In this document: positions 1,485-10,206 of the stretch, piece after piece | Position numbering within the stretch: position 1 is the stretch's first letter | Layout: each line of letters begins with the position of its first letter | Source of the DNA: a virus | Taxonomy: Duplodnaviria; Heunggongvirae; Uroviricota; Caudoviricetes | Virus record (IMG/VR): IMGVR_UViG_2648501669_000026 | DNA: 12,061 bases | Strand: one strand, 5' to 3' | Made by a program: the position numbers and the translations under genes | Notes under the pieces: generated by a model | What the model was told of the DNA's origin: nothing | The model's database searches: none | Seen by the model: only the letters and a program-made list of their open reading frames with translations

Positions 1485-2360
1485 ATGGAAAACACAATCA
1501 CGGTATTAACACCCGTTTTTAAAAACTGCCCGGAAATGACCACGATTGCATCGTGGCCCCGTAGTTTTGTATATCAAAAGGGACAATCTGAAGTCTCTTT
1601 GGTTATTCGTCTGATTGATATCATTGCATCAAAATACATGCACAGACACGCCGAGGAATATTGCGATATTACAGGGTATTGCCTGCCGTTAGTGCATAAA
1701 ATCAGTGATGAAGAGATGCGGGATATTGCGGAAGGTTGCGATATTGCCATTACACGCATCCGGCAAAAAATCCGCGAAGCAGAAAATAAAGTGACTGCTC
1801 AGGAAAATAAAATCAGCGAATTGCGTAACGCTCAGTTACAGCCCACGTGTGCTGATAACCCTTATGGTGATCGGTATTCAGTAAAAGACGTTATCGAGCA
1901 TGAAATGCGTCTGCTTGAAAATGAGAAACGGAATTGCGAAAAGACACGCGCTGTCTGTGAGCAGGCTATACGCCTTATTGGTACGGGGAAAAACCTTTCT
2001 CATGATGGCGGTAATGCGTGGATTTTTGCCGCTTCGTTTGACGGACTGGAGCCGGAAACAAATCGCCGTATCAATATTTATAAAGAGATTATTTCGGCTG
2101 TCAGTGCGATCGTCACTTTACGCAATGAAGAAATTAAGCACATTCCTTATTCAGTAATGGCTAAATACAACCATTTACGGCAGGAATATATTAATGATGC
2201 ATTACGTACTCTGACGAAGCATTATTACAGCAACGGCAGTGAAACCATCCGCCATGCGATGACGCTACAGGAATACACCGGAATAAGTATGCCACGAATT
2301 GAACGGGATGCGGCGACCGCTTTGCTGTCTGTACATACCGAAAAGAAAGATATTGTTTAA
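1485..2360 (+). CDS. Hypothetical 291-aa protein with a central coiled-coil; capsid-scaffold-like only by position and size
   Basis: ATG 1485 lies 5 nt after the alpA stop, with GGAG 8 nt upstream. Heptad-like charged segment IRQKIREAENKVTAQENKISELRNAQLQ. No family recognised; it does not match my recollection of P2 GpO. Confidence 0.55.
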   Translation: MENTITVLTPVFKNCPEMTTIASWPRSFVYQKGQSEVSLVIRLIDIIASKYMHRHAEEYCDITGYCLPLVHKISDEEMRDIAEGCDIAITRIRQKIREAENKVTAQENKISELRNAQLQPTCADNPYGDRYSVKDVIEHEMRLLENEKRNCEKTRAVCEQAIRLIGTGKNLSHDGGNAWIFAASFDGLEPETNRRINIYKEIISAVSAIVTLRNEEIKHIPYSVMAKYNHLRQEYINDALRTLTKHYYSNGSETIRHAMTLQEYTGISMPRIERDAATALLSVHTEKKDIV

Positions 2361-2370
2361 GGGGAAATGT

Positions 2371-3423
2371 ATGTTTTTTAATATTAATGACCTGAAAGAT
2401 AAAGCCGGAAGCGTGCTTGAAAATATCAATATTTCATCTCCAGCGGTGAACGAAAATGAAACTGACATTAATAGCGCGCTTGCAGAAAAAGATCTTTACG
2501 CACGCATCAGTGCATACACACAAAAAAATCCGTTTGTGCATTTTATTTCGCCCTCTAACTGGCTTTCCGGGCAAATAAAATACCTGTCAGTTAATCCGCA
2601 TCAGTCCGCTATTAACCTTATTGGGGATGCGCGCTTATCCACCGGACGCGCAGAGGAAGGACGCTTTAGCCGTGCCATGGATATTAAAGGCTCTCCGATT
2701 GAATGCTATGAGATGGACTCATGCGAATATCTCGACTGGATTAACTTGGTTGTGATGGCCAATGTGGCGAATGACGACAAAAACCGCGATGCACTGCTGG
2801 GGATTTTGTGTGGCTATCTGACCAGCAAAATTTATCTGGACGATCTGCGGATTGGCTTTAACGGCAAGTCAGCGGCAACCTTCACCACACCGGACACCAA
2901 CCCGAACGGCGAGGATGTTGCGCCCGGCTGGCATGAAATTGCCAGGAAGGCAAGCGAAGGACGACAGATTATCAGCGATGCCATTACGCTGGGCGCAGGT
3001 GGTGATTTTCCGGGGGTAGATGCACTGGCGCAGCATCTGATTAAAACGAAAATTGCCGCACAGTGGCAGAACGATCCACGCCTTGTGGTGATGGTGGGAT
3101 CAGAACTTGCAGCTGCCGAACGTCTGCGTCTTTTCAGCACCGCAAACGGCGCAGGAGATACCGAAGCCGCCAGCGCATGGGGAAGCACCATTGCCGGGCA
3201 TTTTGCCTTTGTGCCACCGTTTATGCCGGGTAAACGTCTGGCTGTGACCACACTCCCGAACCTGCTGATTAACATCATTGAAGGCTCTTACCGCACAGAG
3301 TTCGATATGAACAAAGACACCAAACGCCTGAACATGCGGGCATGGCGTCATCAGGGCTACGGGCTGGCGGATGTGAATCTTTACGCGGCAGTGGATGAGG
3401 GCGCGATTACGCTTAATCCGTGA
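2371..3423 (+). CDS. Putative P2 GpN-family major capsid-like protein (tentative)
   Basis: ATG 2371 with AAGGGG 5-6 nt upstream; the ORF-track start at 2299 overlaps the preceding gene and is rejected. Collinear motifs GFNG, NP-x3-DVAPGW, GAGGDFPGVDAL and DPRLVVMVGSEL match P2 GpN as I recall it (GFNG, DVAVGW, GKGGDYASLDAL, DPDLVVIVGRQL). Size 350 aa versus 357 aa for GpN. Based on memory only. Confidence 0.55.
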   Translation: MFFNINDLKDKAGSVLENINISSPAVNENETDINSALAEKDLYARISAYTQKNPFVHFISPSNWLSGQIKYLSVNPHQSAINLIGDARLSTGRAEEGRFSRAMDIKGSPIECYEMDSCEYLDWINLVVMANVANDDKNRDALLGILCGYLTSKIYLDDLRIGFNGKSAATFTTPDTNPNGEDVAPGWHEIARKASEGRQIISDAITLGAGGDFPGVDALAQHLIKTKIAAQWQNDPRLVVMVGSELAAAERLRLFSTANGAGDTEAASAWGSTIAGHFAFVPPFMPGKRLAVTTLPNLLINIIEGSYRTEFDMNKDTKRLNMRAWRHQGYGLADVNLYAAVDEGAITLNP

Positions 3424-3440
3424 TGGCTGGATAAGAAAAC

Positions 3441-3460
3441 GGCCCGCAAGATGGCGGGCC
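3441..3460. terminator. GC-rich hairpin after the capsid-like gene, looks bidirectional
   Basis: GGCCCGC (3441..3447), 6-nt loop, GCGGGCC (3454..3460), 18 nt past the stop. A-rich upstream and no T-run downstream on +, so the U-tract is on the - strand side. Confidence 0.35.
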
Positions 3461-3574
3461 GCTAACCACAAAAGGAAAAATCTACGAATCTACAGTTCGG
3501 GAATGATTATGAACTTTTTACGTACAGAAATCAATCACTCAGCGCAATCACGCAAAAATAATTTGCAATATTAC

Positions 3575-3604
3575 TTGACTCGCTTTTTTGTCATGGCGTA
3601 TCGT
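3575..3604 (+). promoter_or_regulatory. Candidate sigma70-type promoter for the early operon
   Basis: TTGACT (3575..3580), 18-bp spacer, TATCGT (3599..3604). Paired AATCAC half-sites lie just upstream (3530..3550). Sequence-only prediction. Confidence 0.3.
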
Positions 3605-3633
3605 TTGCCCGCACCTCATAAAGCGGGTGCCGG

Positions 3634-3817
3634 GTTTGACAGCCTGATTGTTAGAGCGGGTAGCCGCTATATTTCCGTAATGCGGTTTTTTTGTGCCCGT
3701 AATTCCACCCTACCCCGTATTATGGCGGGGCGTAATGGGGGAGCCTTTGCGCTCGCTGGTTTCTCTAACGCCAGTCTGTCAACCCTGTTACGTCCCGCCA
3801 CCATGTTTGACAGCGTG
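3634..3817 (+). promoter_or_regulatory. Untranslated leader with a 13-bp repeat triplet, P4 seqA/seqB/seqC-like
   Basis: GTTTGACAGCCTG (3634..3646) and GTTTGACAGCGTG (3805..3817) are direct repeats, 12/13 identical. CAGTCTGTCAACC (3772..3784) is an imperfect inverted copy (11/13 pairing). A short hairpin plus T7 run sits at 3680..3700. No SD-supported ORF between 3465 and 3856. Confidence 0.3.
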
Positions 3818-3856
3818 CTGGCGAGACTCCGTAAATCAGTTAGAGGAGCCGCCAAA

Positions 3857-4030
3857 ATGGCTATATCAACACGCCCTGATTTTATCTGGCGCTTTATGCA
3901 GTGCCACGGTAAAAATATTCGCCTTCATACCGTTACCGCTGCCAGTGAGCGCGAAGCGCGCGCCATGCTTCCGGCATCCCGTCTGGTCTTTGTTGCCCGT
4001 ATCCGTGTCCGGGAGGCGTGCCATGTTTAA
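3857..4030 (+). CDS. Small 57-aa protein, candidate Icd-like (host cell division inhibitor-like) family
   Basis: ATG 3857 with GAGGAG 8 nt upstream. The segment FIWRF...VTAASEREARAMLP...LVFVARIRV resembles the Icd-like small proteins I recall from P4-type prophages. The ORF-track extension back to 3395 overlaps the upstream gene and hairpin and has no SD. Confidence 0.5.
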   Translation: MAISTRPDFIWRFMQCHGKNIRLHTVTAASEREARAMLPASRLVFVARIRVREACHV

Positions 4031-4211
4031 GCTCCTTATCACCCTGATTAACTGCCAGAACGGCGACGTTCGCCAGTTTGTTCATGCCGAGGAATACCCG
4101 ACCTGTGATGATGCGTTGCGTGCTGCCCGTCGCATGGAGTACACCCGCGCCAACAAACAGGGGAAATTAACCCACAAATGCACGGTAAACATTATGGAAA
4201 TGGAGGGGTAA
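4023..4211 (+). CDS. Hypothetical small protein (62 aa)
   Basis: ATG 4023 overlaps the upstream stop (ATGTTTAA), with GGGAGG 6 nt upstream. It is the SD-supported C-terminal part of ORF-track frame 3693..4211. Confidence 0.5.
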   Translation: MFKLLITLINCQNGDVRQFVHAEEYPTCDDALRAARRMEYTRANKQGKLTHKCTVNIMEMEG

Positions 4212-4213
4212 CA

Positions 4214-4402
4214 ATGTACGAAATTCATATTAAATTGTGTAATGTGATTACGGGAGAAGAAGCAAACTATCGCGCGCCACTTAAATATAAATCGAGAAAA
4301 GAAGCGGCAATTGATGTATTCAGGTATGCAGAAGAAATTTCATCTAAATACCAGGGAGCAGAAGAAGAACTCACAGTATCAGCGGTGGAGGCAGAGCAAT
4401 GA
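4214..4402 (+). CDS. Hypothetical small acidic protein (62 aa), AT-rich
   Basis: ATG 4214 with GGAGGGG 5 nt upstream. About 35-40% GC by hand count. Stop overlaps the next start (ATGA at 4399..4402). Confidence 0.5.
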   Translation: MYEIHIKLCNVITGEEANYRAPLKYKSRKEAAIDVFRYAEEISSKYQGAEEELTVSAVEAEQ

Positions 4403-4617
4403 AAACCCGTTCAACATCCCGTAAAAATAATGGCAGTGGTGAAAAACGTTTCTTTGTGCTGGGTTATGCCGTTAATAAGCGCGGGTTAACCAAACATGCA
4501 CATGCAACGGTATACGGAACGGGGCCGGGCGAAGCCATACGCCGCGCAGCCGAAGGACTGGAAGAGCTGGGAATGACACATTTCAGGGCGTTGAAGGTTA
4601 CGCAGCTTTCTGCCTGA
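4399..4617 (+). CDS. Hypothetical small basic protein (72 aa)
   Basis: ATG 4399 with GGTGGAGG 7 nt upstream; 4-nt overlap with the preceding ORF suggests translational coupling. Confidence 0.5.
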   Translation: MKTRSTSRKNNGSGEKRFFVLGYAVNKRGLTKHAHATVYGTGPGEAIRRAAEGLEELGMTHFRALKVTQLSA

Positions 4618-4684
4618 TTCCCGAATTACCAACTGATAACTGAATTCAATTTATATTTCGGCCTTAACGGTCGGGGAGTTTTTT

Positions 4685-4990
4685 ATGTCTGAAAATCAGA
4701 ATTACGCAAATCTTTTACATAAAGAATATGTTGGTTTTTTTACAGAGGATGCAAAAGAAGATCTCACAGATGTAATTAGTCTCGTCAACCTTATATCTAT
4801 CATGTTTGATGAAAGAAGCTGCGGAGTGGGTGCAGAAATTACCAATAAAGATATTACATCTCTGTCTAATATTATTAGTCGGGAATTACAATCAATAAAA
4901 TCAGGTATGCATCTTTCTGGCGGCATTTTTTCATGGCGTCAGGCTGAAGCAGCAGGGATTGCCCGGAAACAAGAAGTAACGAGTAATTAA
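4685..4990 (+). CDS. Hypothetical 101-aa protein, AT-rich cargo-like gene just upstream of the primase
   Basis: ATG 4685 with GGGGAG 7 nt upstream. About 25-37% GC versus about 50% in flanking genes. No recognisable motif. The - strand ORF 4702..4926 overlapping it is treated as antisense artefact. Confidence 0.55.
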   Translation: MSENQNYANLLHKEYVGFFTEDAKEDLTDVISLVNLISIMFDERSCGVGAEITNKDITSLSNIISRELQSIKSGMHLSGGIFSWRQAEAAGIARKQEVTSN

Positions 4991-4996
4991 TAAAAG

Positions 4997-5019
4997 CCCA
5001 CTGCAAAAGGTGCAGTGGG
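4997..5019 (+). terminator. Stable hairpin between the 101-aa ORF and the primase start; weak terminator or translational control element
   Basis: CCCACTGCA (4997..5005), loop AAAGG, TGCAGTGGG (5011..5019), a 9-bp perfect stem. No T-run downstream on +; the 3' arm abuts the primase SD GGAGGG (5020..5025). Confidence 0.3.
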
Positions 5020-5032
5020 GAGGGATTTATAT

Positions 5033-7702
5033 ATGAAACATAACACCAGAAAAGAGATTATTAACCGTCTTATTCGTGATTACAACTTTAAAGAAGAAAA
5101 TAATTATCTTCGCTATGGTGTTTGTCCGCAATGTGGAAAGAAGGAACTGTTTACCAGTCTTGAGAGGCCGTACATCGTACACTGTGGCCGCGAAAATAAA
5201 TGCGGTGCAGACCTGCTGACCAAAGAACTTTACCCGGATGTGTTTTCGTCATGGTCAGATCGCTATATCAGTACGAAAGACGATCCATACGCAGCGGCGG
5301 TAGCTTATCTTCAGGAGGCGCGCAATATTGCTGTGGAGCCACTGAAAGGGGCATTTACTCAGGAGCGATACCAGGACAAGGAAAGCGGCGAACAGGCCGC
5401 TACTGTGCGTTTTACGCTGGCTGACGGCGTGTGGTGGGAGCGCATCATAGACCGACCGGAACGCTTCGCTCGCAAGGCGAATTTTTCCGGCAGTTACAAG
5501 GGGCTGTGGTGGGCTTATCCGGGAGCGGATTTAAGCAAGGCCAAAGAAATCTGGATTTGTGAGGGTATCTTTGATGCCATCAGCCTTAACCAGAATGGCA
5601 TTGCGGCCGTTTCTGTCATGTCTGCCGTGAACTACCCTGATAAATCGCTGGAAGAACTGGCGAAGCTGTGCGGGGATAATCCACGCCCGGTTATCGTGTG
5701 GGCGCTGGATAACGGGCGTGCGGGTGAGCGTTACGCGAAAAAACATGCAGAACGCAGCGCCGAAGACGGCTGGAGAACGGCGGCAGCATTACCAGGTAAA
5801 AACAGCAATAAACGCGACTGGAATGATTTACACATCGCCGGAAAGCTGCGTGGCCATGATGTGAAAAGATATCGTTATTACGGTGATTTATTGTTGGCGA
5901 AATCGCCGAGAGATAAGGCACTAATAATGTTTTCCTTTCGTGAGCGAAAGGAGTTTTATTTTCCCTTTGATAACCGTATTTTCTGGTTCAAGCTGGATAT
6001 TGAGCGCCATATGAAGGCTGTTGAGCGTGTCATTAATGAGCGAAATGTTGACGAAAATGAAGCGCGCAAAATTGCACTTAAGGAATCCGGTGCAGTAAAA
6101 GAAATCGCAAACTGTAACCCAGTACCGCTTTATTACATTCGAAACAATGACACGGATGAAGCATGGTATTACTTCCGTGTTACGTTCCCGGATGGTGCGA
6201 CGGTGAAAAACACCTTTACATCAGGTCAATTAACATCCGCATCTGAATTTAAAAAACGCCTGTTGCATGTGGCAAAAGGTGGTATTTATACCGGAACGAC
6301 TGCGCACCTTGATGCATTAATAAAAAATGACCTTCCCGCAATAAAAAATGTTATCGGTCAGGATTTTATCGGATACAACAAAGAGATTGGCGCATGGCTG
6401 TTTAATGATGTCGCGGTTTGTAATGGTAAAACCTACGAAATCAATGAAGAGGATTATTTTGAAATTGATGGCATAAACGCAAAACCATTGAATAAAAAAC
6501 CAATATTGCAGATTAACTATAAAAAACCGGATGAATTTACAACGTCCTGGGTGGAAGATCTCTGGCTGGCGTTTGGTGAAAAGGGAATTATTACCCTGGC
6601 CTTCTGGCTGGGTTCGTTGTTCAGCGAACAAATCAGGCAGAAAAACGCATCTTACCCCTTTCTTGAGATTACCGGAGAGCCTGGAACGGGTAAAACAACG
6701 CTGATTGATTTTTGCTGGCGTTTGTGTGGCCGTGACAACTATGAAGGTGTTGATCCAACCAAAGGATCGGAATCAGGCTGGAAGCGAACTTTTGGACAGG
6801 TCGCCGGATTACCTGTTGTTCTGATTGAGGCAGACCGGGGGGACAATGCGCAAAAAAGAGGTGCGTTTGACTTTGATAACCTGAAAAGCCTCTATAACGG
6901 CGGTGGTATTGGGGTACGTGGTGTTAAAACTAATGATAACGCCACATATGACCCTGTTTTTAAAGGGGCTGTCGTGATTGCGCAGAATGCCACGGTAAAT
7001 GCCTCATCGGCAATTATCGAGCGTCTGGTACGTATATACACCGATAAAAAACGCCACTCACCAGATAGCCGACTGGCAGCAAAACGGCTGGAGCTTTACC
7101 CCGTTGAGCAGGTATCAGGTTTTATCCATCGGGCAGTAAGCCAGGAGCGGGCGATTATGGATTTGTTTATGGCACTCTCGGATCCTGAAACAGCCCGCCT
7201 TTACAGTTGCGAAAATATTCGCCATCAGCGTATTGCCAAAAATCACGCGCAACTAATTGCACTGGTCAGGGTGCTGAAATGCGTTATTGATATCCCGGAT
7301 GAATGGCTTGATGCCACATGTCTGGAACTGGAGCGAATGGCAGAGGAACAGGCTAAAGCGGTAATGGATGACTTGCCGGAAGTGATGGCGTTCTGGGAGG
7401 CGTTCGACTATCTGGACGGCATAACAGCATACGGCGTAAATCATTTTGGCAAGGGACGGCAGAATGAGTTTGCCGTCAGTATCCCGCAACTTGAGCAGGT
7501 TGCCGCCGTTCACCATGTGAAGATCCAAACCAATCCCGAAATGATAAAGCTTCTCAAGGCTGGCCGTTCTCGATCGCTGATTGGATACAAGCCCGTCCGT
7601 AGCGAGGTATCCAGACAGGCGAACGCCGGGAGGGGGATAGCCGAGGCCAGAGAGAAGGAGGTATTGAAATGCTGGATATTTAGTAACAAGGAGGGGGCTT
7701 AA
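5033..7702 (+). CDS. Bifunctional DNA primase/helicase (N-terminal zinc ribbon, TOPRIM primase, P-loop NTPase), P4 alpha-like replication protein
   Basis: ATG 5033 with GGAGGG 8 nt upstream; the ORF-track GTG at 5015 lies inside the hairpin. Zinc ribbon CPQCG...HCGRENKCG. TOPRIM motifs WICEGIFDAISL and VWALDNGRAGERYA. Walker A GEPGTGKTT and Walker B-like VVLIEAD. 889 aa. Confidence 0.9.
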   Translation: MKHNTRKEIINRLIRDYNFKEENNYLRYGVCPQCGKKELFTSLERPYIVHCGRENKCGADLLTKELYPDVFSSWSDRYISTKDDPYAAAVAYLQEARNIAVEPLKGAFTQERYQDKESGEQAATVRFTLADGVWWERIIDRPERFARKANFSGSYKGLWWAYPGADLSKAKEIWICEGIFDAISLNQNGIAAVSVMSAVNYPDKSLEELAKLCGDNPRPVIVWALDNGRAGERYAKKHAERSAEDGWRTAAALPGKNSNKRDWNDLHIAGKLRGHDVKRYRYYGDLLLAKSPRDKALIMFSFRERKEFYFPFDNRIFWFKLDIERHMKAVERVINERNVDENEARKIALKESGAVKEIANCNPVPLYYIRNNDTDEAWYYFRVTFPDGATVKNTFTSGQLTSASEFKKRLLHVAKGGIYTGTTAHLDALIKNDLPAIKNVIGQDFIGYNKEIGAWLFNDVAVCNGKTYEINEEDYFEIDGINAKPLNKKPILQINYKKPDEFTTSWVEDLWLAFGEKGIITLAFWLGSLFSEQIRQKNASYPFLEITGEPGTGKTTLIDFCWRLCGRDNYEGVDPTKGSESGWKRTFGQVAGLPVVLIEADRGDNAQKRGAFDFDNLKSLYNGGGIGVRGVKTNDNATYDPVFKGAVVIAQNATVNASSAIIERLVRIYTDKKRHSPDSRLAAKRLELYPVEQVSGFIHRAVSQERAIMDLFMALSDPETARLYSCENIRHQRIAKNHAQLIALVRVLKCVIDIPDEWLDATCLELERMAEEQAKAVMDDLPEVMAFWEAFDYLDGITAYGVNHFGKGRQNEFAVSIPQLEQVAAVHHVKIQTNPEMIKLLKAGRSRSLIGYKPVRSEVSRQANAGRGIAEAREKEVLKCWIFSNKEGA

Positions 7703-7704
7703 GT

Positions 7705-8706
7705 ATGTCGATCAGAAAGATGGATGATGGGCGATGGCTGCTCGATATCAGGCCACAAGGGGCGTACGGCAAACGGATACGTAAAATTTTTGTCAGGAAA
7801 GGGAGTGCAGAGGCCTTCGAACAATATATTTTACAGAATTTCCATAACAACCCATGGCTGGCTAAACCTGCTGATCGGCGGCGATTATCAGAGCTGCTTG
7901 ATACATGGTGGATGCTTGATGGCCGTAACCAGGCTTACGGCGATACCTACAGGATCCGGCTGGAGAAAGTGATTCGTGAAATGGGAGATCCGCGCGCCAG
8001 CCAGATGACGCAAAAATTTATGCTTGAGTATCGGTCAGAGAAATTACAGGCCGGCTTAATGCCATCCAGCATTAATCGTGACTTGTGCGTTCTGTCTACC
8101 ATGTTCACGGTGCTGATTGAAGCAGGGGTCTTTCACAACCCGAACCCTGTGCGCAGTATACGCAAGCTAAAAATTCAGAATACAGAGATGGCCTTTCTTT
8201 CTGATGATGAGATTGAACGGCTTCTTGAGCGACTGGAGGGGGATGCGCGTCGTGTTGCCATTCTGTGTCTTTCTACTGGTGCCCGATGGAGTGAAGCATC
8301 GGAACTACGTGGAGAGCATATCGTTGGCAACCGTGTGACGTTTTTTAACACCAAAAACGGAAAATCCCGCTCGGTTCCTGTGGCGGATTCGGTCGTGCCG
8401 CTGATTAAAACCCGTCGGACGGGGTTGTTGTATCAGGTTGATTATCTGGAGTTCCGGGAGATTCTTCAGGAGGTTAAGCCGGATTTGCCGAAGGGGCAGG
8501 CTACGCATGTTATGCGTCATACATTTGCCACACACTTTATGATGAATGGTGGGAATATCGTTACATTACAACGGATTCTTGGACATGCGACTATCCAGCA
8601 AACGATGACTTATGCGCATTTTTCTCCCGACTATCTGGCGGATGCCATGAGGTTTAACCCGATAGCTAACATGGCATTCACTGAACAAAAAGAGCCAGCA
8701 GAGTAA
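7705..8706 (+). CDS. int: Tyrosine recombinase / integrase, P2 Int-like
   Basis: 333 aa. Catalytic-domain motifs AILCLSTGARWSEA, HVMRHTFATHFM and LGHATIQQTMTYAHF; N-terminal DGRWLLDIRPQG...GKRIRK. Close to P2 Int in length and motifs as I recall it. ATG is 2 nt after the primase stop and shares the SD AAGGAGGGGG. Confidence 0.92.
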   Translation: MSIRKMDDGRWLLDIRPQGAYGKRIRKIFVRKGSAEAFEQYILQNFHNNPWLAKPADRRRLSELLDTWWMLDGRNQAYGDTYRIRLEKVIREMGDPRASQMTQKFMLEYRSEKLQAGLMPSSINRDLCVLSTMFTVLIEAGVFHNPNPVRSIRKLKIQNTEMAFLSDDEIERLLERLEGDARRVAILCLSTGARWSEASELRGEHIVGNRVTFFNTKNGKSRSVPVADSVVPLIKTRRTGLLYQVDYLEFREILQEVKPDLPKGQATHVMRHTFATHFMMNGGNIVTLQRILGHATIQQTMTYAHFSPDYLADAMRFNPIANMAFTEQKEPAE

Positions 8707-8761: not shown

Positions 8762-8953
8762 GTTGGCCAAAGCCAACGGTAACAGCAATGCAATGGTGGC
8801 CATATTGCAGCGGTGCCGCCATCAATTTTTTTGCTCTCCCTTCCTGATTATCAGGAAAGAGTCAAATAGTGGCGAGATACATTTTAATCACAGAGAGTTA
8901 ATGAGAGTGAGACATAGTGAGTGAGTTTAATTAACATTTTAAAGGGTTGCGCT

Positions 8954-9277
8954 AAAATCCGGGGGGGGGTGCGGAAACGGGTTACAAAGGTTACAAACAG
9001 AAAAATATATTATATATCAATATATTATAATACATTTAAAAGGTTACAAACGGGTTACAACAGGGTTACATGTAACCTTTATGTAGTGGTTACTGTTGGT
9101 TACAGGTTAAATTTATAATTAATTGATAATTAATCTGTTTTTTAGAGCTGTAACCTCGTGTAACCTTCTGTAACCTCAAAAAGGTTACAAGCAATTTCAT
9201 TTAAAATCATGATGTTAATGTGTGTTTTAAGGAGCTGTAACCTTTGTAACCCGTTTCCGCACCCCCTACCGGATTTT
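8954..9277. repeat. Iteron array bounded by a long inverted repeat; putative origin of replication of the element
   Basis: 13 exact heptamers. GGTTACA on + at 8980, 8989, 9042, 9053, 9064, 9098, 9183; TGTAACC at 9071, 9149, 9159, 9169, 9236, 9245. Three are phased at exactly 10 bp (9149/9159/9169). Palindrome GGTTACATGTAACC at 9064..9077. 30-bp perfect inverted repeat 8966..8995 / 9236..9265, extending to 42 bp (8954..8995 / 9236..9277) with 2 mismatches. AT-rich core 9001..9040 (2 G/C in 40 nt). Confidence 0.6.
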
Positions 9278-9415
9278 GAGGCAGAGCCCAAAAAACACTG
9301 GTAAGACCAGAAACATAAAATTAACACAACAAAACTGAATGAAATGACTGTTACCCCCCCGTGATGACGGGTAAAATCAGGTCAGGCAATCAGCGTTTAT
9401 TCATGAGGTGCCGGA

Positions 9416-9670
9416 GTGCGCAGACAGAAAGCGCGGTGTTTTTGCTGTGGTGAGCGCGCAGTGATTGAAAAGACCGTCTGGAAAGATGATCGGTTTGCTG
9501 ACGTGTATTACCGTTGCAAGCGTCTTGAGTGCGGACATACCTGGGTAATGAATCTGACCTACTCGCACACGCTGACCCCCAGCGGACTGGAGAACGGCGT
9601 GTTGAAGCTGTTGATCGAACGAATGCGCCCGGAGGAAAAACAAATGGCGCTGGAACTACTACAGGCCTGA
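9416..9670 (+). CDS. Ogr/Delta-family zinc-finger transcriptional activator-like protein
   Basis: GTG 9416 with GAGGTG 5 nt upstream. C-x2-C, 22 residues, C-x4-C (CFCCGERA...CKRLEC), the same cysteine spacing as P2 Ogr as I recall it. 84 aa. Confidence 0.7.
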   Translation: MRRQKARCFCCGERAVIEKTVWKDDRFADVYYRCKRLECGHTWVMNLTYSHTLTPSGLENGVLKLLIERMRPEEKQMALELLQA

Positions 9671-9687
9671 GGATACCAGCCAAAAGA

Positions 9688-9715
9688 AAACCCGCAGCTT
9701 TTACACGGCGGGTTT
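9688..9715. terminator. Hairpin downstream of the ogr-like gene, bidirectional-looking
   Basis: AAACCCGC (9688..9695), 12-nt loop, GCGGGTTT (9708..9715). The better U-tract is on the - strand (TTTTCTTTTG from 9681..9690). Confidence 0.4.
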
Positions 9716-10206
9716 GTGATGTTCATGACTGCAGATAGGGTGCCGTTCCGGCCTTTACCCTGGCAACCGATTGACGGGGAAGTTGACTTCCCCGTCGCGG
9801 TTCCTTACTGTGTAGACTTACATTGTAAGAATGCCGCAATTTCCGTTCCTGCAAACCTGAATCGCAACTCACAAGGTGATGTGTGGAGGATCCAGATTAT
9901 CGCTACTGCGGTTAAACACAGTAGCAGGGTTTTTAACGGAATTTGCGTCATAGCGCTTGCTCCTTTGGTGGAGAGGCGCTAACCTTCTACTTGTCAAGGT
10001 ACGAAGTGTTAGGGCCTCGGGTTAACATTAAAGTTGACTCGGGGCCTTTCCACATCTGGCCTTCGGGTATTCCCTCCGACCATCAGCCGAAAGGCACCCG
10101 CAGCGATTCTAGCCTGGTTGCCATACCCGCATCAATCACCCGCCACATCGCTTTATCGCTCGCAAATCAGCAACCTGACGCTACTTTACGTCGCTCTGTC
10201 CGGCAT

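What the first reader, a model, noticed from the sequence alone, without database searches (positions are those of the whole stretch)
4023..4617. Three tightly coupled small ORFs, including an acidic/basic overlapping pair
Seen in sequence: ORFs of 62, 62 and 72 aa each have a strong SD, and their junctions overlap or abut (ATGTTTAA at 4023, ATGA at 4399). The 4214..4402 product is acidic and AT-rich; the 4399..4617 product is basic with normal GC. Inference: a coupled acidic/basic pair may be a toxin-antitoxin-like or inhibitor pair. By position they may instead be helper-manipulating early genes like P4 epsilon. I recognise no family.
Basis: inference. Interest (0 to 1): 0.4.

Follow-up and report, generated by a model that had tools for sequence, protein, structure and literature searches.

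The report
RNA-gated small genes in satellite island
The three small overlapping genes are real, conserved genes of unknown function that sit behind an antisense-RNA switch in the early operon of a phage-satellite-like island of E. coli; two are duplicates of each other, and nothing supports the toxin-antitoxin idea.

Summary
ORFs 4023-4211 (62 aa), 4214-4402 (62 aa) and 4399-4617 (72 aa) exist, each with a Shine-Dalgarno site, joined by ATGTTTAA, a 2-nt gap and ATGA. They are intact in about 66 complete E. coli genomes and in Yersinia, and evolve under purifying selection (dN/dS 0.37, 0.41, 0.13).

They are not a stand-alone pair. They lie in one operon: promoter-like site, C4-target a1/b1, isrK-like RNA, C4 antisense RNA, target a2/b2 over the Shine-Dalgarno site of an Icd-like ORF, orfA, orfB, orfC, orf101, toprim primase, integrase. 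This is the layout of the P1 immI operon and the P4 left operon.

orfA and orfB are paralogs (hhalign E 7e-9). orfC is a separate family (motif GYAVNxRGxT). orfB and orfC are both predicted as beta-beta-alpha-beta folds. An A/B-type plus C-type cassette recurs in related islands and one P2-like phage contig. C-type genes follow C4/Icd in many islands with unrelated replicases, and apparently in the ECOR61 cell-death locus of Silas et al.

The acidic charge of orfB is allele-specific, and no TA, P4 epsilon or other known family matches. The toxin-antitoxin reading is not supported. The "early gene like epsilon" reading holds by position only. Biochemical function remains unknown.

The parts
3575..3604 (+). 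sigma-70-like promoter candidate (TTGACT-18-TATCGT) for the operon
   Evidence: It is the only + strand promoter-like site between 3300 and 5200. This is a consensus match only.
3598..3656 (+). first C4 target pair: a1 TTTGACAG at 3635, b1 GTTAGAG at 3650
   Evidence: Rfam c4-a1b1 match at 3598-3650, 30.3 bits, below its gathering score. Each exact motif occurs only twice in the 12-kb window.
3611..3692 (+). isrK-like RNA element ending in a hairpin and a T-run
   Evidence: Rfam RF01394, 49.0 bits against a gathering score of 50, E 3e-8. The same element scores above gathering in relatives L017, L007, L020, L041 and others.
3718..3805 (+). C4-type antisense (immunity) RNA; loop b' CTCTAAC at 3763, a' CTGTCAA at 3776
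   Evidence: Rfam RF01695, 72.8 bits (gathering 45), E 5e-13, full length. Motif positions.
3806..3850 (+). second C4 target pair: a2 TTTGACAG at 3806, b2 GTTAGAG at 3839, overlapping the Shine-Dalgarno site AGAGGAG of the Icd-like ORF
   Evidence: The duplex with C4 has dG -51 kcal/mol, z -2.9 against shuffles. The initiation regions of orfA, orfB, orfC and orf101 give z about 0.
3857..4030 (+). Icd-like leader ORF (57 aa)
   Evidence: NCBIfam NF033153, E 2.9e-15, 56 bits against a cutoff of 25. dN/dS 0.22. RefSeq annotates a longer 173-aa form, 3509-4030.
4023..4211 (+). orfA, 62 aa, A-type member of the A/B family (starts MFKxxITLIN..G)
4214..4402 (+). orfB, 62 aa, tandem paralog of orfA; predicted beta-beta-alpha-beta fold
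   Evidence: hhalign of A-type against B-type profiles: 95.8% probability, E 6.9e-9. AlphaFold2 mean pLDDT 89.9. dN/dS 0.41.
4399..4617 (+). orfC, 72 aa: disordered basic N-terminal tail (residues 1-15) plus a beta-beta-alpha-beta domain with motif GYAVNKRGLT
   Evidence: AlphaFold2 mean pLDDT 85.5. dN/dS 0.13. Family members.
4656..4676 (+). weak hairpin plus T-run between orfC and orf101, abutting the orf101 Shine-Dalgarno site
   Evidence: Terminator-like pattern only; 4 such sites were found where 1.9 are expected by chance.
4685..4990 (+). orf101, AT-rich and variable, at the position occupied by epsilon-family genes in relatives
   Evidence: Not detectably related to epsilon.
5015..7702 (+). 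toprim primase-type replicase (phiCTX/phrog_1139 type), distal gene of the same operon
7705..8706 (+). second (P2-phage-type) integrase, 3 nt after the primase stop

Best explanation
The three ORFs are genuine small genes of the immunity-gated early operon of a P2-related, satellite-like island. One transcript (promoter about 3575-3604) carries, in order: C4-target a1/b1, an isrK-like element, a C4-type antisense RNA, target a2/b2, an Icd-like leader ORF, orfA, orfB, orfC, orf101, a toprim primase and an integrase. In the quiescent state the C4 RNA pairs with a2/b2. Target b2 covers the Shine-Dalgarno site of the Icd-like ORF, so that ORF is not translated. Everything behind it is then silenced through translational coupling and, as in P1 and P4, probably through polarity. 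When the block is lifted, ribosomes finishing Icd-like restart at orfA (ATGTTTAA), pass to orfB (2-nt gap) and then to orfC (ATGA). The three proteins are therefore made together with Icd-like and ahead of the replicase. orfA and orfB are tandem duplicates of one beta-beta-alpha-beta family. orfC belongs to a second family with the same predicted topology plus a basic disordered tail. An A/B-type plus C-type cassette is a recurrent unit. Shown here: gene reality, paralogy, operon anatomy, C4 and its targets, and recurrence of the cassette. Inferred: that the coupling operates; that A/B-type and C-type proteins work together, possibly as a heteromer; and that they are small binding effectors of the induced state. 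In that state they would contribute with Icd-like to growth arrest and take-over of host or helper, with orfC possibly binding nucleic acid. They are not an addiction module.
For: Anatomy: C4 RNA at 72.8 bits, and isrK-like and a1b1 matches just below or below their gathering scores. TTTGACAG and GTTAGAG each occur exactly twice, upstream and downstream of C4, and are complementary to C4 motifs at 3776 and 3763. b2 overlaps the Icd-like Shine-Dalgarno site. The duplex with C4 stands out from shuffles only for the Icd-like initiation region, z -2.9. Icd-like domain E 3e-15. There is no + strand promoter-like site inside the trio.

Junctions: the overlap NTG-NTT-AA recurs after the upstream gene in L005, L007, L020, L024, L025, L038 and L075 and in P4 between the cI ORF and epsilon.

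Precedent: in the Gifsy-1 isrK locus, translation of a leader ORF that overlaps anrP by AUGA is required for anrP translation (PMC4825925). [quoted passage not shown]

Coding: dN/dS 0.37, 0.41 and 0.13, with ORFs intact in all loci examined.

Families: A against B, hhalign 95.8%, E 6.9e-9. orfB and orfC models have pLDDT 90 and 86, both beta-beta-alpha-beta.

Recurrence: B+C in Yersinia. A+B+C with a DUF927-type primase. A+C next to an epsilon-like gene and a toprim primase in a P2-like phage contig. C after C4/Icd with DUF927, P4-alpha-type or GPA replicases.

Function hint: in ECOR61, Tn5 insertions in the Icd-like gene and in the 186-nt and 192-nt genes that follow it suppress cell death triggered by phage gene orf24. 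All six linked genes including a primase were needed to rebuild the effect (bioRxiv 10.1101/2023.04.06.535777). Gene lengths and overlaps match the L006-type island, whose 61-aa gene is an orfC relative.
Against: No expression, coupling or protein-interaction data exist for this island; translation is inferred from conservation. Each ORF has its own good Shine-Dalgarno site, so independent initiation is possible and coupling may be partial. The ECOR61 link is indirect. That contig's sequence was not examined. That locus lacks A/B-type genes and has a different primase. Transposon effects there may be polar on the primase. Structure searches give no significant match to a characterised protein. 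For orfC the best are ribosomal eL20/LX, TM 0.62-0.69 but E 0.03-0.7, and only uncharacterised phage proteins in BFVD. For orfB there is nothing. The biochemical role is therefore a guess. The A+C cassette also occurs without C4 (L023, L024), so it is not strictly tied to the RNA switch.
Confidence: 0.55

Rival explanations
1. orfB (acidic) and orfC (basic) form a toxin-antitoxin-like or inhibitor-target pair that stabilises the island or aborts infection.
For: In this allele the charges are opposite (pI 4.9 against 10.7) and the genes overlap by ATGA. B and C co-occur in E. coli, Yersinia and L025-type islands. Related Icd operons can cause cell death.
Against: The other five B-type alleles tested are basic, pI 8.8-10. 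There is no own promoter-like site and the genes lie in the middle of a long operon. No hit to TA or defence models in Pfam, NCBIfam or PADLOC. C occurs in about 30 islands without B. B's homolog is orfA, a neighbour that also pairs with C. Some variants of the island already carry a standard MazEF module elsewhere.
Confidence: 0.07
2. One or more of the three proteins is an antirepressor that inactivates the helper prophage repressor, functionally like P4 epsilon, P1 Ant or Gifsy-1 AnrP.
For: orfA occupies the slot directly behind the Icd-like ORF with the same 8-nt overlap as epsilon in P4. That slot holds antirepressors in P1 and Gifsy-1. A and B evolve fast, dN/dS about 0.4, with many alleles, as expected for proteins tracking variable repressors. 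The island has other P2-type parts: capsid gene, ogr/delta, integrase.
Against: No similarity to epsilon/PF25738, Ant or KilAC. In L021, L023 and L024 a true epsilon-family gene is present as well as the C-type gene (and, where examined in L023/L024, the A-type gene), downstream of them. C-type genes are conserved in islands with quite different architecture and probably different helpers.
Confidence: 0.2
3. They are accessory factors for the replication module, such as origin-binding proteins, replicase loaders or copy-number regulators (compare P4 Cnr).
For: They always lie upstream of, and on the same strand as, the replicase. orfC has a basic disordered tail and a fold most like the RNA-binding ribosomal protein eL20/LX.
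Against: C-type genes accompany four unrelated replicase types: phiCTX-type toprim, DUF927, P4-alpha-type and GPA. That argues against a specific partner. The structural matches are not significant. P4 Cnr is not a detectable homolog; the P4 ORF set compared gave only chance-level alignments.
Confidence: 0.15
4. They are not functional genes: chance ORFs, or leader peptides whose sequence does not matter.
For: All are very short and have no known family.
Against: dN/dS is below 1 for all three. Homologs at 30-50% identity keep length and motifs in several genera. The AlphaFold2 models are confident even with shallow alignments.
Confidence: 0.03

Closest known systems
P1/P7 immI operon (c4 antisense RNA - icd - ant1/2)
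   Same: C4-family RNA processed from the same transcript it controls. Duplicated a/b target sequences, with b2 over the ribosome-binding site of a small Icd-type ORF. The downstream genes overlap that ORF.
   Different: The downstream genes are three small beta-beta-alpha-beta proteins, then orf101 and a primase, not the Ant antirepressor. The host element is a roughly 13-kb chromosomal island, not a plasmid prophage.
P4 left operon (CI RNA, cI/Icd-like ORF, epsilon, orf151, orf106/cnr, alpha)
   Same: Same gene order logic: immunity RNA, Icd-like ORF, small genes, replicase. Same 8-nt overlap at the first junction.
   Different: No sequence similarity of A, B or C to epsilon, orf151 or orf106. 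The replicase is phiCTX-type, not alpha. The island has no psu or sid and carries its own P2-family capsid gene.
ECOR61 prophage-encoded cell-death / superinfection-exclusion locus (Silas et al., bioRxiv 10.1101/2023.04.06.535777)
   Same: An Icd-like gene with a long annotated N-terminus, followed with an 8-nt overlap by small genes and then a DNA primase. By gene lengths, overlaps and annotation that locus matches the L006-type island, whose first small gene (61 aa) is an orfC-family member.
   Different: That locus has no A/B-type genes. Its second small gene is a 63-aa acidic helical protein. It contains DUF4222 and a DUF927 primase. The sequence identity of the ECOR61 contig itself was not checked here.
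Gifsy-1 isrK-orf45-anrP locus
   Same: An isrK-type RNA element upstream, and a small leader ORF whose translation is needed for the overlapping (AUGA) downstream gene.
   Different: The downstream gene there is an antirepressor-like protein. Activation is by the short IsrK RNA acting in trans. No C4 RNA is described in that paper.

Membership tests
Type II toxin-antitoxin module | Self-contained two-gene operon with its own (autoregulated) promoter | tested here: not met
   No + strand promoter-like site between 3605 and 5015. The genes are embedded between the Icd-like ORF and orf101/primase in every relative. This rests on a consensus scan only.
Type II toxin-antitoxin module | At least one partner belongs to a known toxin or antitoxin family | tested here: not met
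   No significant hit in Pfam, NCBIfam or PADLOC. Profile searches of PDB sequences gave nothing relevant.
Type II toxin-antitoxin module | The pair is conserved as a pair; labile acidic antitoxin and basic toxin | tested here: not met
   orfC occurs without orfB in about 30 loci. orfB is acidic only in 2 of 7 alleles tested.
Type II toxin-antitoxin module | Toxicity of one partner neutralised by the other | not testable with these tools
   Needs expression experiments.
P4 epsilon / Pfam PF25738 'Derepression protein family' | Sequence match to PF25738 | tested here: not met
   P4 epsilon scores E 4e-50 and the L023 and L021 proteins score E 2e-26 and 2e-8. orfA, orfB, orfC and orf101 give no hit. 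BLASTP against epsilon gives chance level only.
P4 epsilon / Pfam PF25738 'Derepression protein family' | Located directly behind the Icd-like/cI ORF in the immunity-controlled operon | tested here: met
   orfA overlaps the Icd-like ORF by 8 nt, as epsilon does in P4. This is a positional feature only.
P4 epsilon / Pfam PF25738 'Derepression protein family' | Derepresses the helper prophage by binding its repressor | not testable with these tools
   Needs induction assays in P2-type lysogens.
immI-type operon (C4 RNA - icd - coupled downstream genes) | C4-family antisense RNA encoded in the operon leader | tested here: met
   RF01695, 72.8 bits against a gathering score of 45, full length, 3718-3805.
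immI-type operon (C4 RNA - icd - coupled downstream genes) | Two copies of the a/b target, the second over the icd ribosome-binding site | tested here: met
   TTTGACAG at 3635 and 3806; GTTAGAG at 3650 and 3839. The complements lie in C4 at 3776 and 3763. b2 overlaps AGAGGAG upstream of ATG 3857.
immI-type operon (C4 RNA - icd - coupled downstream genes) | Icd-family ORF overlapping the start of the next gene | tested here: met
   NF033153 E 2.9e-15. ATGTTTAA overlap.
immI-type operon (C4 RNA - icd - coupled downstream genes) | Downstream gene is an Ant-type antirepressor | tested here: not met
   No Ant, KilAC or Rha domain in orfA, orfB, orfC or orf101.
P4-like satellites (core set: int, psu, delta, sid, alpA, epsilon, alpha; PMC8628076) | Most of the seven core components present | tested here: not met
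   Present: integrase, AlpA-type HTH (Pfam AlpA in L017) and ogr/delta. No psu, sid, epsilon or alpha homolog is annotated or detected. The replicase is phiCTX-type.
ECOR61-type Icd/primase cell-death locus | Icd-like gene followed by a C-family small gene and a primase in one operon | tested here: met
   orfC profile against P0038, E 2.4e-4 over 1.8 billion proteins. L005 61-aa protein against the orfC profile, E 8e-5, and against P0038, E 2e-10. In the window, orfA and orfB are inserted between Icd-like and orfC.
ECOR61-type Icd/primase cell-death locus | Growth arrest triggered by phage accessory gene orf24 | not testable with these tools
   Experimental phenotype.

The most novel reading that the evidence does not exclude
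The A/B-type plus C-type cassette encodes a new class of small two-component effector that is a core, previously unnoticed part of C4/Icd-gated satellite operons. For example, it could be an RNA- or DNA-binding complex that either locks the switch open by antagonising C4 RNA or termination, or executes the growth arrest and abortive response seen in the ECOR61 locus. orfC would be the conserved nucleic-acid-binding subunit, and the fast-evolving A/B paralogs would be specificity subunits.
Probability: 0.2. Interest if true: 0.65.

Novelty: new variant of a known kind. Interest (0 to 1): 0.4.

Why it matters
C4/Icd-gated operons are common in enterobacterial prophages, phage-plasmids and satellites. 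Recent work shows that such loci can kill the cell in response to phage counter-defence genes, yet the small genes between Icd and the replicase have no assigned role. This analysis defines two uncharacterised protein families, A/B and C. It shows that they travel as a cassette and places them under a defined RNA switch. It also ties the C family to the one locus with a phenotype (ECOR61). That gives concrete, cheap experiments. The gain is modest: the regulatory design is already known from P1 and P4, and the proteins' function is still open.

Tried and rejected
- **Family scans of the single window proteins.** Pfam, NCBIfam, PHROGs and PADLOC gave nothing, or chance-level hits only. Note that-6 protein 1 was given one base out of frame (3858); this was redone correctly from 3857.
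- **Family scans of all members of alignments A6 and A9.** Nothing relevant. The one exception is phrog_3672, of unknown function, which matches 3 C-family members.
- **PDB sequence searches.** Single sequences and profiles returned only designed repeat proteins or noise.
- **HicB/UPF0150-like fold.** I suspected this from the sequence pattern and a weak 3fgx hit (E 0.59). Foldseek did not return it, so the idea was dropped.
- **Common origin of orfC with A/B or with Icd-like.** No significant sequence signal. Only the predicted topology is shared between orfB and orfC.
- **orf101 as a divergent epsilon.** hhalign was not significant.
- **Genome-contig scan with the primase.** It returned a single locus, so diversity was taken from the E. 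coli collection, the look-up of encoding contigs and IMG/VR instead.
- **tblastn against 50,697 phage records.** orfC gave only chance-level hits (E 2-6) and the 61-aa relative gave none.
- **Full-length RNA duplex energies.** These ignore intramolecular structure and were used only as a relative control.
- **Start-codon refinement.** It failed for L041-L056; those rows were ignored.
Full report
**1. The observation**

The window has three consecutive + strand ORFs exactly as reported:
- orfA, 4023-4211, 62 aa.
- orfB, 4214-4402, 62 aa.
- orfC, 4399-4617, 72 aa.

Each has a purine-rich Shine-Dalgarno site 5-7 nt upstream: GGGAGG at 4011-4016, GGAGGGG at 4202-4208, GGAGG at 4387-4391. The junctions are ATGTTTAA, a 2-nt spacer, and ATGA. 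In ATGTTTAA the TAA is the stop codon of the preceding ORF. In this allele orfB is acidic and AT-rich (pI 4.9, GC 39%) and orfC is basic (pI 10.7, GC 51%).

The ORFs are not chance:
- The same three genes with the same junctions are annotated in every related E. coli island fetched.
- The whole stretch is present in about 66 of 5426 complete E. coli genomes.
- Pooled Nei-Gojobori dN/dS over 8-10 distinct alleles is 0.37 (A), 0.41 (B) and 0.13 (C).

One qualification applies. The other five B-type alleles tested are basic (pI 8.8-10.0), so the acidic/basic contrast is a feature of this allele, not of the family.

**2. Surroundings**

The window is a chromosomal island inserted between gcd and hpt. 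The gene order is:
- an integrase, just outside the window;
- a 346-aa ORF;
- an AlpA-position HTH;
- a 291-aa coiled-coil ORF;
- a P2-family major capsid gene (PF05125, E 5e-44);
- the region of interest;
- orf101;
- an 895-aa toprim primase;
- a second integrase of the P2-phage type;
- ogr/delta;
- hok/sok;
- hpt.

The primase matches phrog_1139 at full length and is 42-51% identical to the replicases of phiCTX, RSY1 and Evevirus.

Just upstream of the trio, Rfam finds several elements:
- A full-length C4 antisense RNA at 3718-3805 (72.8 bits, gathering score 45).
- An isrK-like element at 3611-3692 (49.0 bits, gathering score 50).
- The c4-a1b1 target at 3598-3650 (30.3 bits, below its gathering score).

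The ORF that ends in the ATGTTTAA junction (3857-4030, 57 aa) is an Icd-like protein (NF033153, E 2.9e-15).

The octamer TTTGACAG occurs only at 3635 and 3806, and the heptamer GTTAGAG only at 3650 and 3839. Their complements lie in C4 at 3776 and 3763. The second GTTAGAG runs into AGAGGAG, the Shine-Dalgarno site of the Icd-like ORF. Only the Icd-like initiation region shows above-background complementarity to C4 (z -2.9); the initiation regions of orfA, orfB, orfC and orf101 do not. The only + strand promoter-like site in 3300-5200 is at 3575-3604, ahead of all this.

The trio is therefore the middle of one operon built like P1 immI (c4-icd-ant). It also resembles the P4 left operon. There the old 'cI ORF' carries a weak Icd-like C-terminus and is overlapped by 8 nt by epsilon, followed by orf151, orf106 and alpha.

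**3. What the three proteins are**

None of the three window proteins matches Pfam, NCBIfam, PADLOC or PDB sequences, and their PHROG hits are at chance level. Word-indexed searches of 5.8 billion proteins found only 7, 14 and 9 clusters. All were from E. coli, Salmonella or Yersinia, at 65% identity or more, and named hypothetical.

An exhaustive profile search with orfC found 13 representatives at E 0.001 or better. Several were at 35-50% identity and share the motif GYAVNxRGxT.

Reading the contigs that encode these relatives uncovered divergent homologs of orfA and orfB. With them the relationship is clear:
- A-type against B-type profiles align over columns 1-60, in register, at 95.8% probability and E 6.9e-9.
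- Invariant positions are M1, N10, G14, Y25 and A31.
- orfA and orfB are therefore tandem paralogs.
- orfC shows no significant sequence similarity to them.

AlphaFold2 predicts the same topology for both proteins modelled:
- orfB: E2-10, E16-25, H28-45, E51-59; mean pLDDT 89.9.
- orfC: E16-25, E31-40, H43-56, E60-70; mean pLDDT 85.5. It is preceded by a disordered lysine- and arginine-rich tail, residues 1-15.

Foldseek finds no significant match to a characterised structure:
- orfC resembles the ribosomal protein eL20/LX domain best (TM 0.62-0.69, E 0.03-0.7).
- In BFVD, orfC matches only uncharacterised small phage proteins.
- orfB matches nothing.

**4. Recurrence**

The cassette 'A/B-type gene followed by C-type gene' recurs in several places:
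- The Yersinia enterocolitica version of the same island has B+C but no A.
- L025/L026 have A+B+C with capsid, C4 and a DUF927-type primase.
- L020 has AlpA, Ash/C4, a 125-aa ORF, then A and C.
- L023/L024 have a LuxR-type HTH gene, A, C, an epsilon-family gene (PF25738, E 2e-26) and a toprim primase. L023 runs on into ogr, portal and terminase, so it is a P2-like phage. No C4 was found there.

In L024 the upstream gene is different, yet the junction is again CATGTTTAA. The coupling overlap therefore belongs to the A-type gene's start, Met-Phe-Lys.

C-type genes alone follow the Icd-like ORF, again with ATGCTTAA, in a second and larger group of islands. These have the order int, AlpA, (DUF4222), C4, Icd, C, small helical protein, primase. 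An IMG/VR scan found 42 contigs with a C-type gene. Nine are this island type. About thirty are the second group, with DUF927 or P4-alpha-type replicases. L027 has C upstream of a GPA-type replicase. C4 RNA lies upstream of the C-type gene in 9 of 10 sampled distant loci.

**5. Link to a phenotype**

Silas et al. (bioRxiv 10.1101/2023.04.06.535777) report that in E. coli ECOR61 a phage accessory gene, orf24, triggers cell death through a prophage-like locus. Suppressing Tn5 insertions map to three genes:
- an Icd-like gene (QOYT01000045: 9309-9675);
- a hypothetical gene at 9131-9317;
- a hypothetical gene at 8940-9132.

The gene lengths (186 and 192 nt) and overlaps (8 nt and 1 nt) match the L006-type island. 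The 61-aa gene of that island type, read from L005 and L007, is a C-family member:
- E 2e-10 against P0038;
- E 8e-5 against the orfC profile.

I did not see the ECOR61 sequence itself, so this identification is an inference.

**6. Mechanism**

The anatomy supports the following scheme. The C4 RNA, cut from the leader, pairs with a2/b2 and blocks translation of the Icd-like ORF. The overlapping or abutting downstream genes are expressed only when that ORF is translated.

Experimental precedents exist:
- In the Gifsy-1 isrK locus, mutating the start codon of the leader ORF orf45, or inserting a stop into it, cuts activation of the AUGA-overlapping anrP several-fold (PMC4825925).
- In P1, icd is reported as required for ant expression (PMC8201110).

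What the proteins then do is not shown. My preferred reading is this. An A/B-type and a C-type protein act together as small binding effectors of the induced state, alongside Icd-like. orfC would be the conserved subunit, perhaps nucleic-acid-binding. The fast-evolving A/B paralogs would be the variable subunit.

**7. Rivals**

- Toxin-antitoxin pair: the evidence is against it. There is no own promoter-like site, no family match, the charge contrast is not conserved, C is common without B, and B is the paralog of A.
- Antirepressor like epsilon: plausible by position and by evolutionary rate. It is weakened by the absence of homology and by the co-occurrence of true epsilon-family genes downstream of A and C.
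- Replication accessory: plausible by position. It is weakened by the association of C with four unrelated replicase types.
- Non-genes: excluded by selection, conservation and confident fold predictions.

**8. Novelty and verdict**

The regulatory design is a known kind (immI / P4 immunity). The cargo behind the Icd-like ORF is new: two protein families not in Pfam or NCBIfam, one of them duplicated here. Only a distant branch of the C family is in PHROGs, as the unnamed phrog_3672.

The finding is real and moderately interesting. It is chiefly a lead to the function of the small genes in Icd/primase operons, which have been tied to phage-triggered cell death. It is not a toxin-antitoxin system on present evidence.

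Noticed in passing
window 1485-3423 (and L009-L011 16-18 kb): The island carries its own P2-family major capsid gene (2371-3423), preceded by a 291-aa coiled-coil gene in the position of a scaffold gene. It has no portal, terminase or tail genes and no psu or sid. In other E. coli variants a more divergent capsid gene (423 aa) sits at the hpt end next to MazEF instead. This looks like a capsid-encoding satellite of P2-type phages that is not a canonical P4-like element. I found no description of it in the literature searches made.
   Followed up: partly
window 7705-8706: A second integrase starts 3 nt after the primase stop. It is 88.7% identical in DNA to the integrases of P2-like phages such as P88 and vB_EcoM-569R5. 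A gene of this type follows the replicase in Yersinia (L017), L025 and L027 as well. Its role in an element that already has a P4-type integrase at the other end is unexplained.
   Followed up: partly
window 3509-4030: RefSeq annotates the Icd-like protein as a 173-aa ORF that runs through the isrK-like and C4 RNA genes. The Icd-like domain is only the last 57 aa (3857-4030), whose Shine-Dalgarno site is the C4 target b2. The long form is probably an over-extension. The 'long N-terminal extension' noted for the ECOR61 protein may have the same cause.
   Followed up: partly
L010 9464-9838 (E. coli CFSAN027346): orfA and orfB are fused into one 124-aa ORF by one extra G in the GGGG run of the orfB Shine-Dalgarno site. 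This is either a natural fusion of the two paralogs or a homopolymer sequencing error.
   Followed up: no
window 4492-4510 (orfC codons 32-37): The His-Ala stretch of orfC (KHAHAT) is encoded by a CATGCA repeat that varies in copy number in frame between strains. P0009 and L015 have two extra HA units and P0010 has one.
   Followed up: no
window 4685-4990: orf101 is AT-rich (GC 36%) and highly variable between otherwise similar islands (29-75% identity, dN/dS 0.41). It sits where relatives carry a P4-epsilon-family gene (PF25738). No homology to epsilon was detectable.
   Followed up: partly
L023 794-1129, L024 1716-2051: A P4-epsilon-family ('Derepression', PF25738) gene lies in the early operon of what looks like a P2-like phage (ogr, portal and terminase downstream). 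So epsilon-type genes are not confined to satellites.
   Followed up: no
window 9416-10099: There is an ogr/delta-type zinc-finger gene at 9416-9670. A hok/sok-like locus lies on the minus strand (sok RF01794, 42.7 bits, below its gathering score of 59; a Hok/Gef family protein is annotated at the corresponding position in the related island L001).
   Followed up: no
window 3433-3583, minus strand: Weak sub-threshold Rfam hits (GcvB 25.6 bits, Hrs13 25.2 bits) and a strong terminator-like hairpin on the minus strand (3463-3438) lie between the capsid gene and the operon promoter. These are probably just a bidirectional terminator.
   Followed up: no
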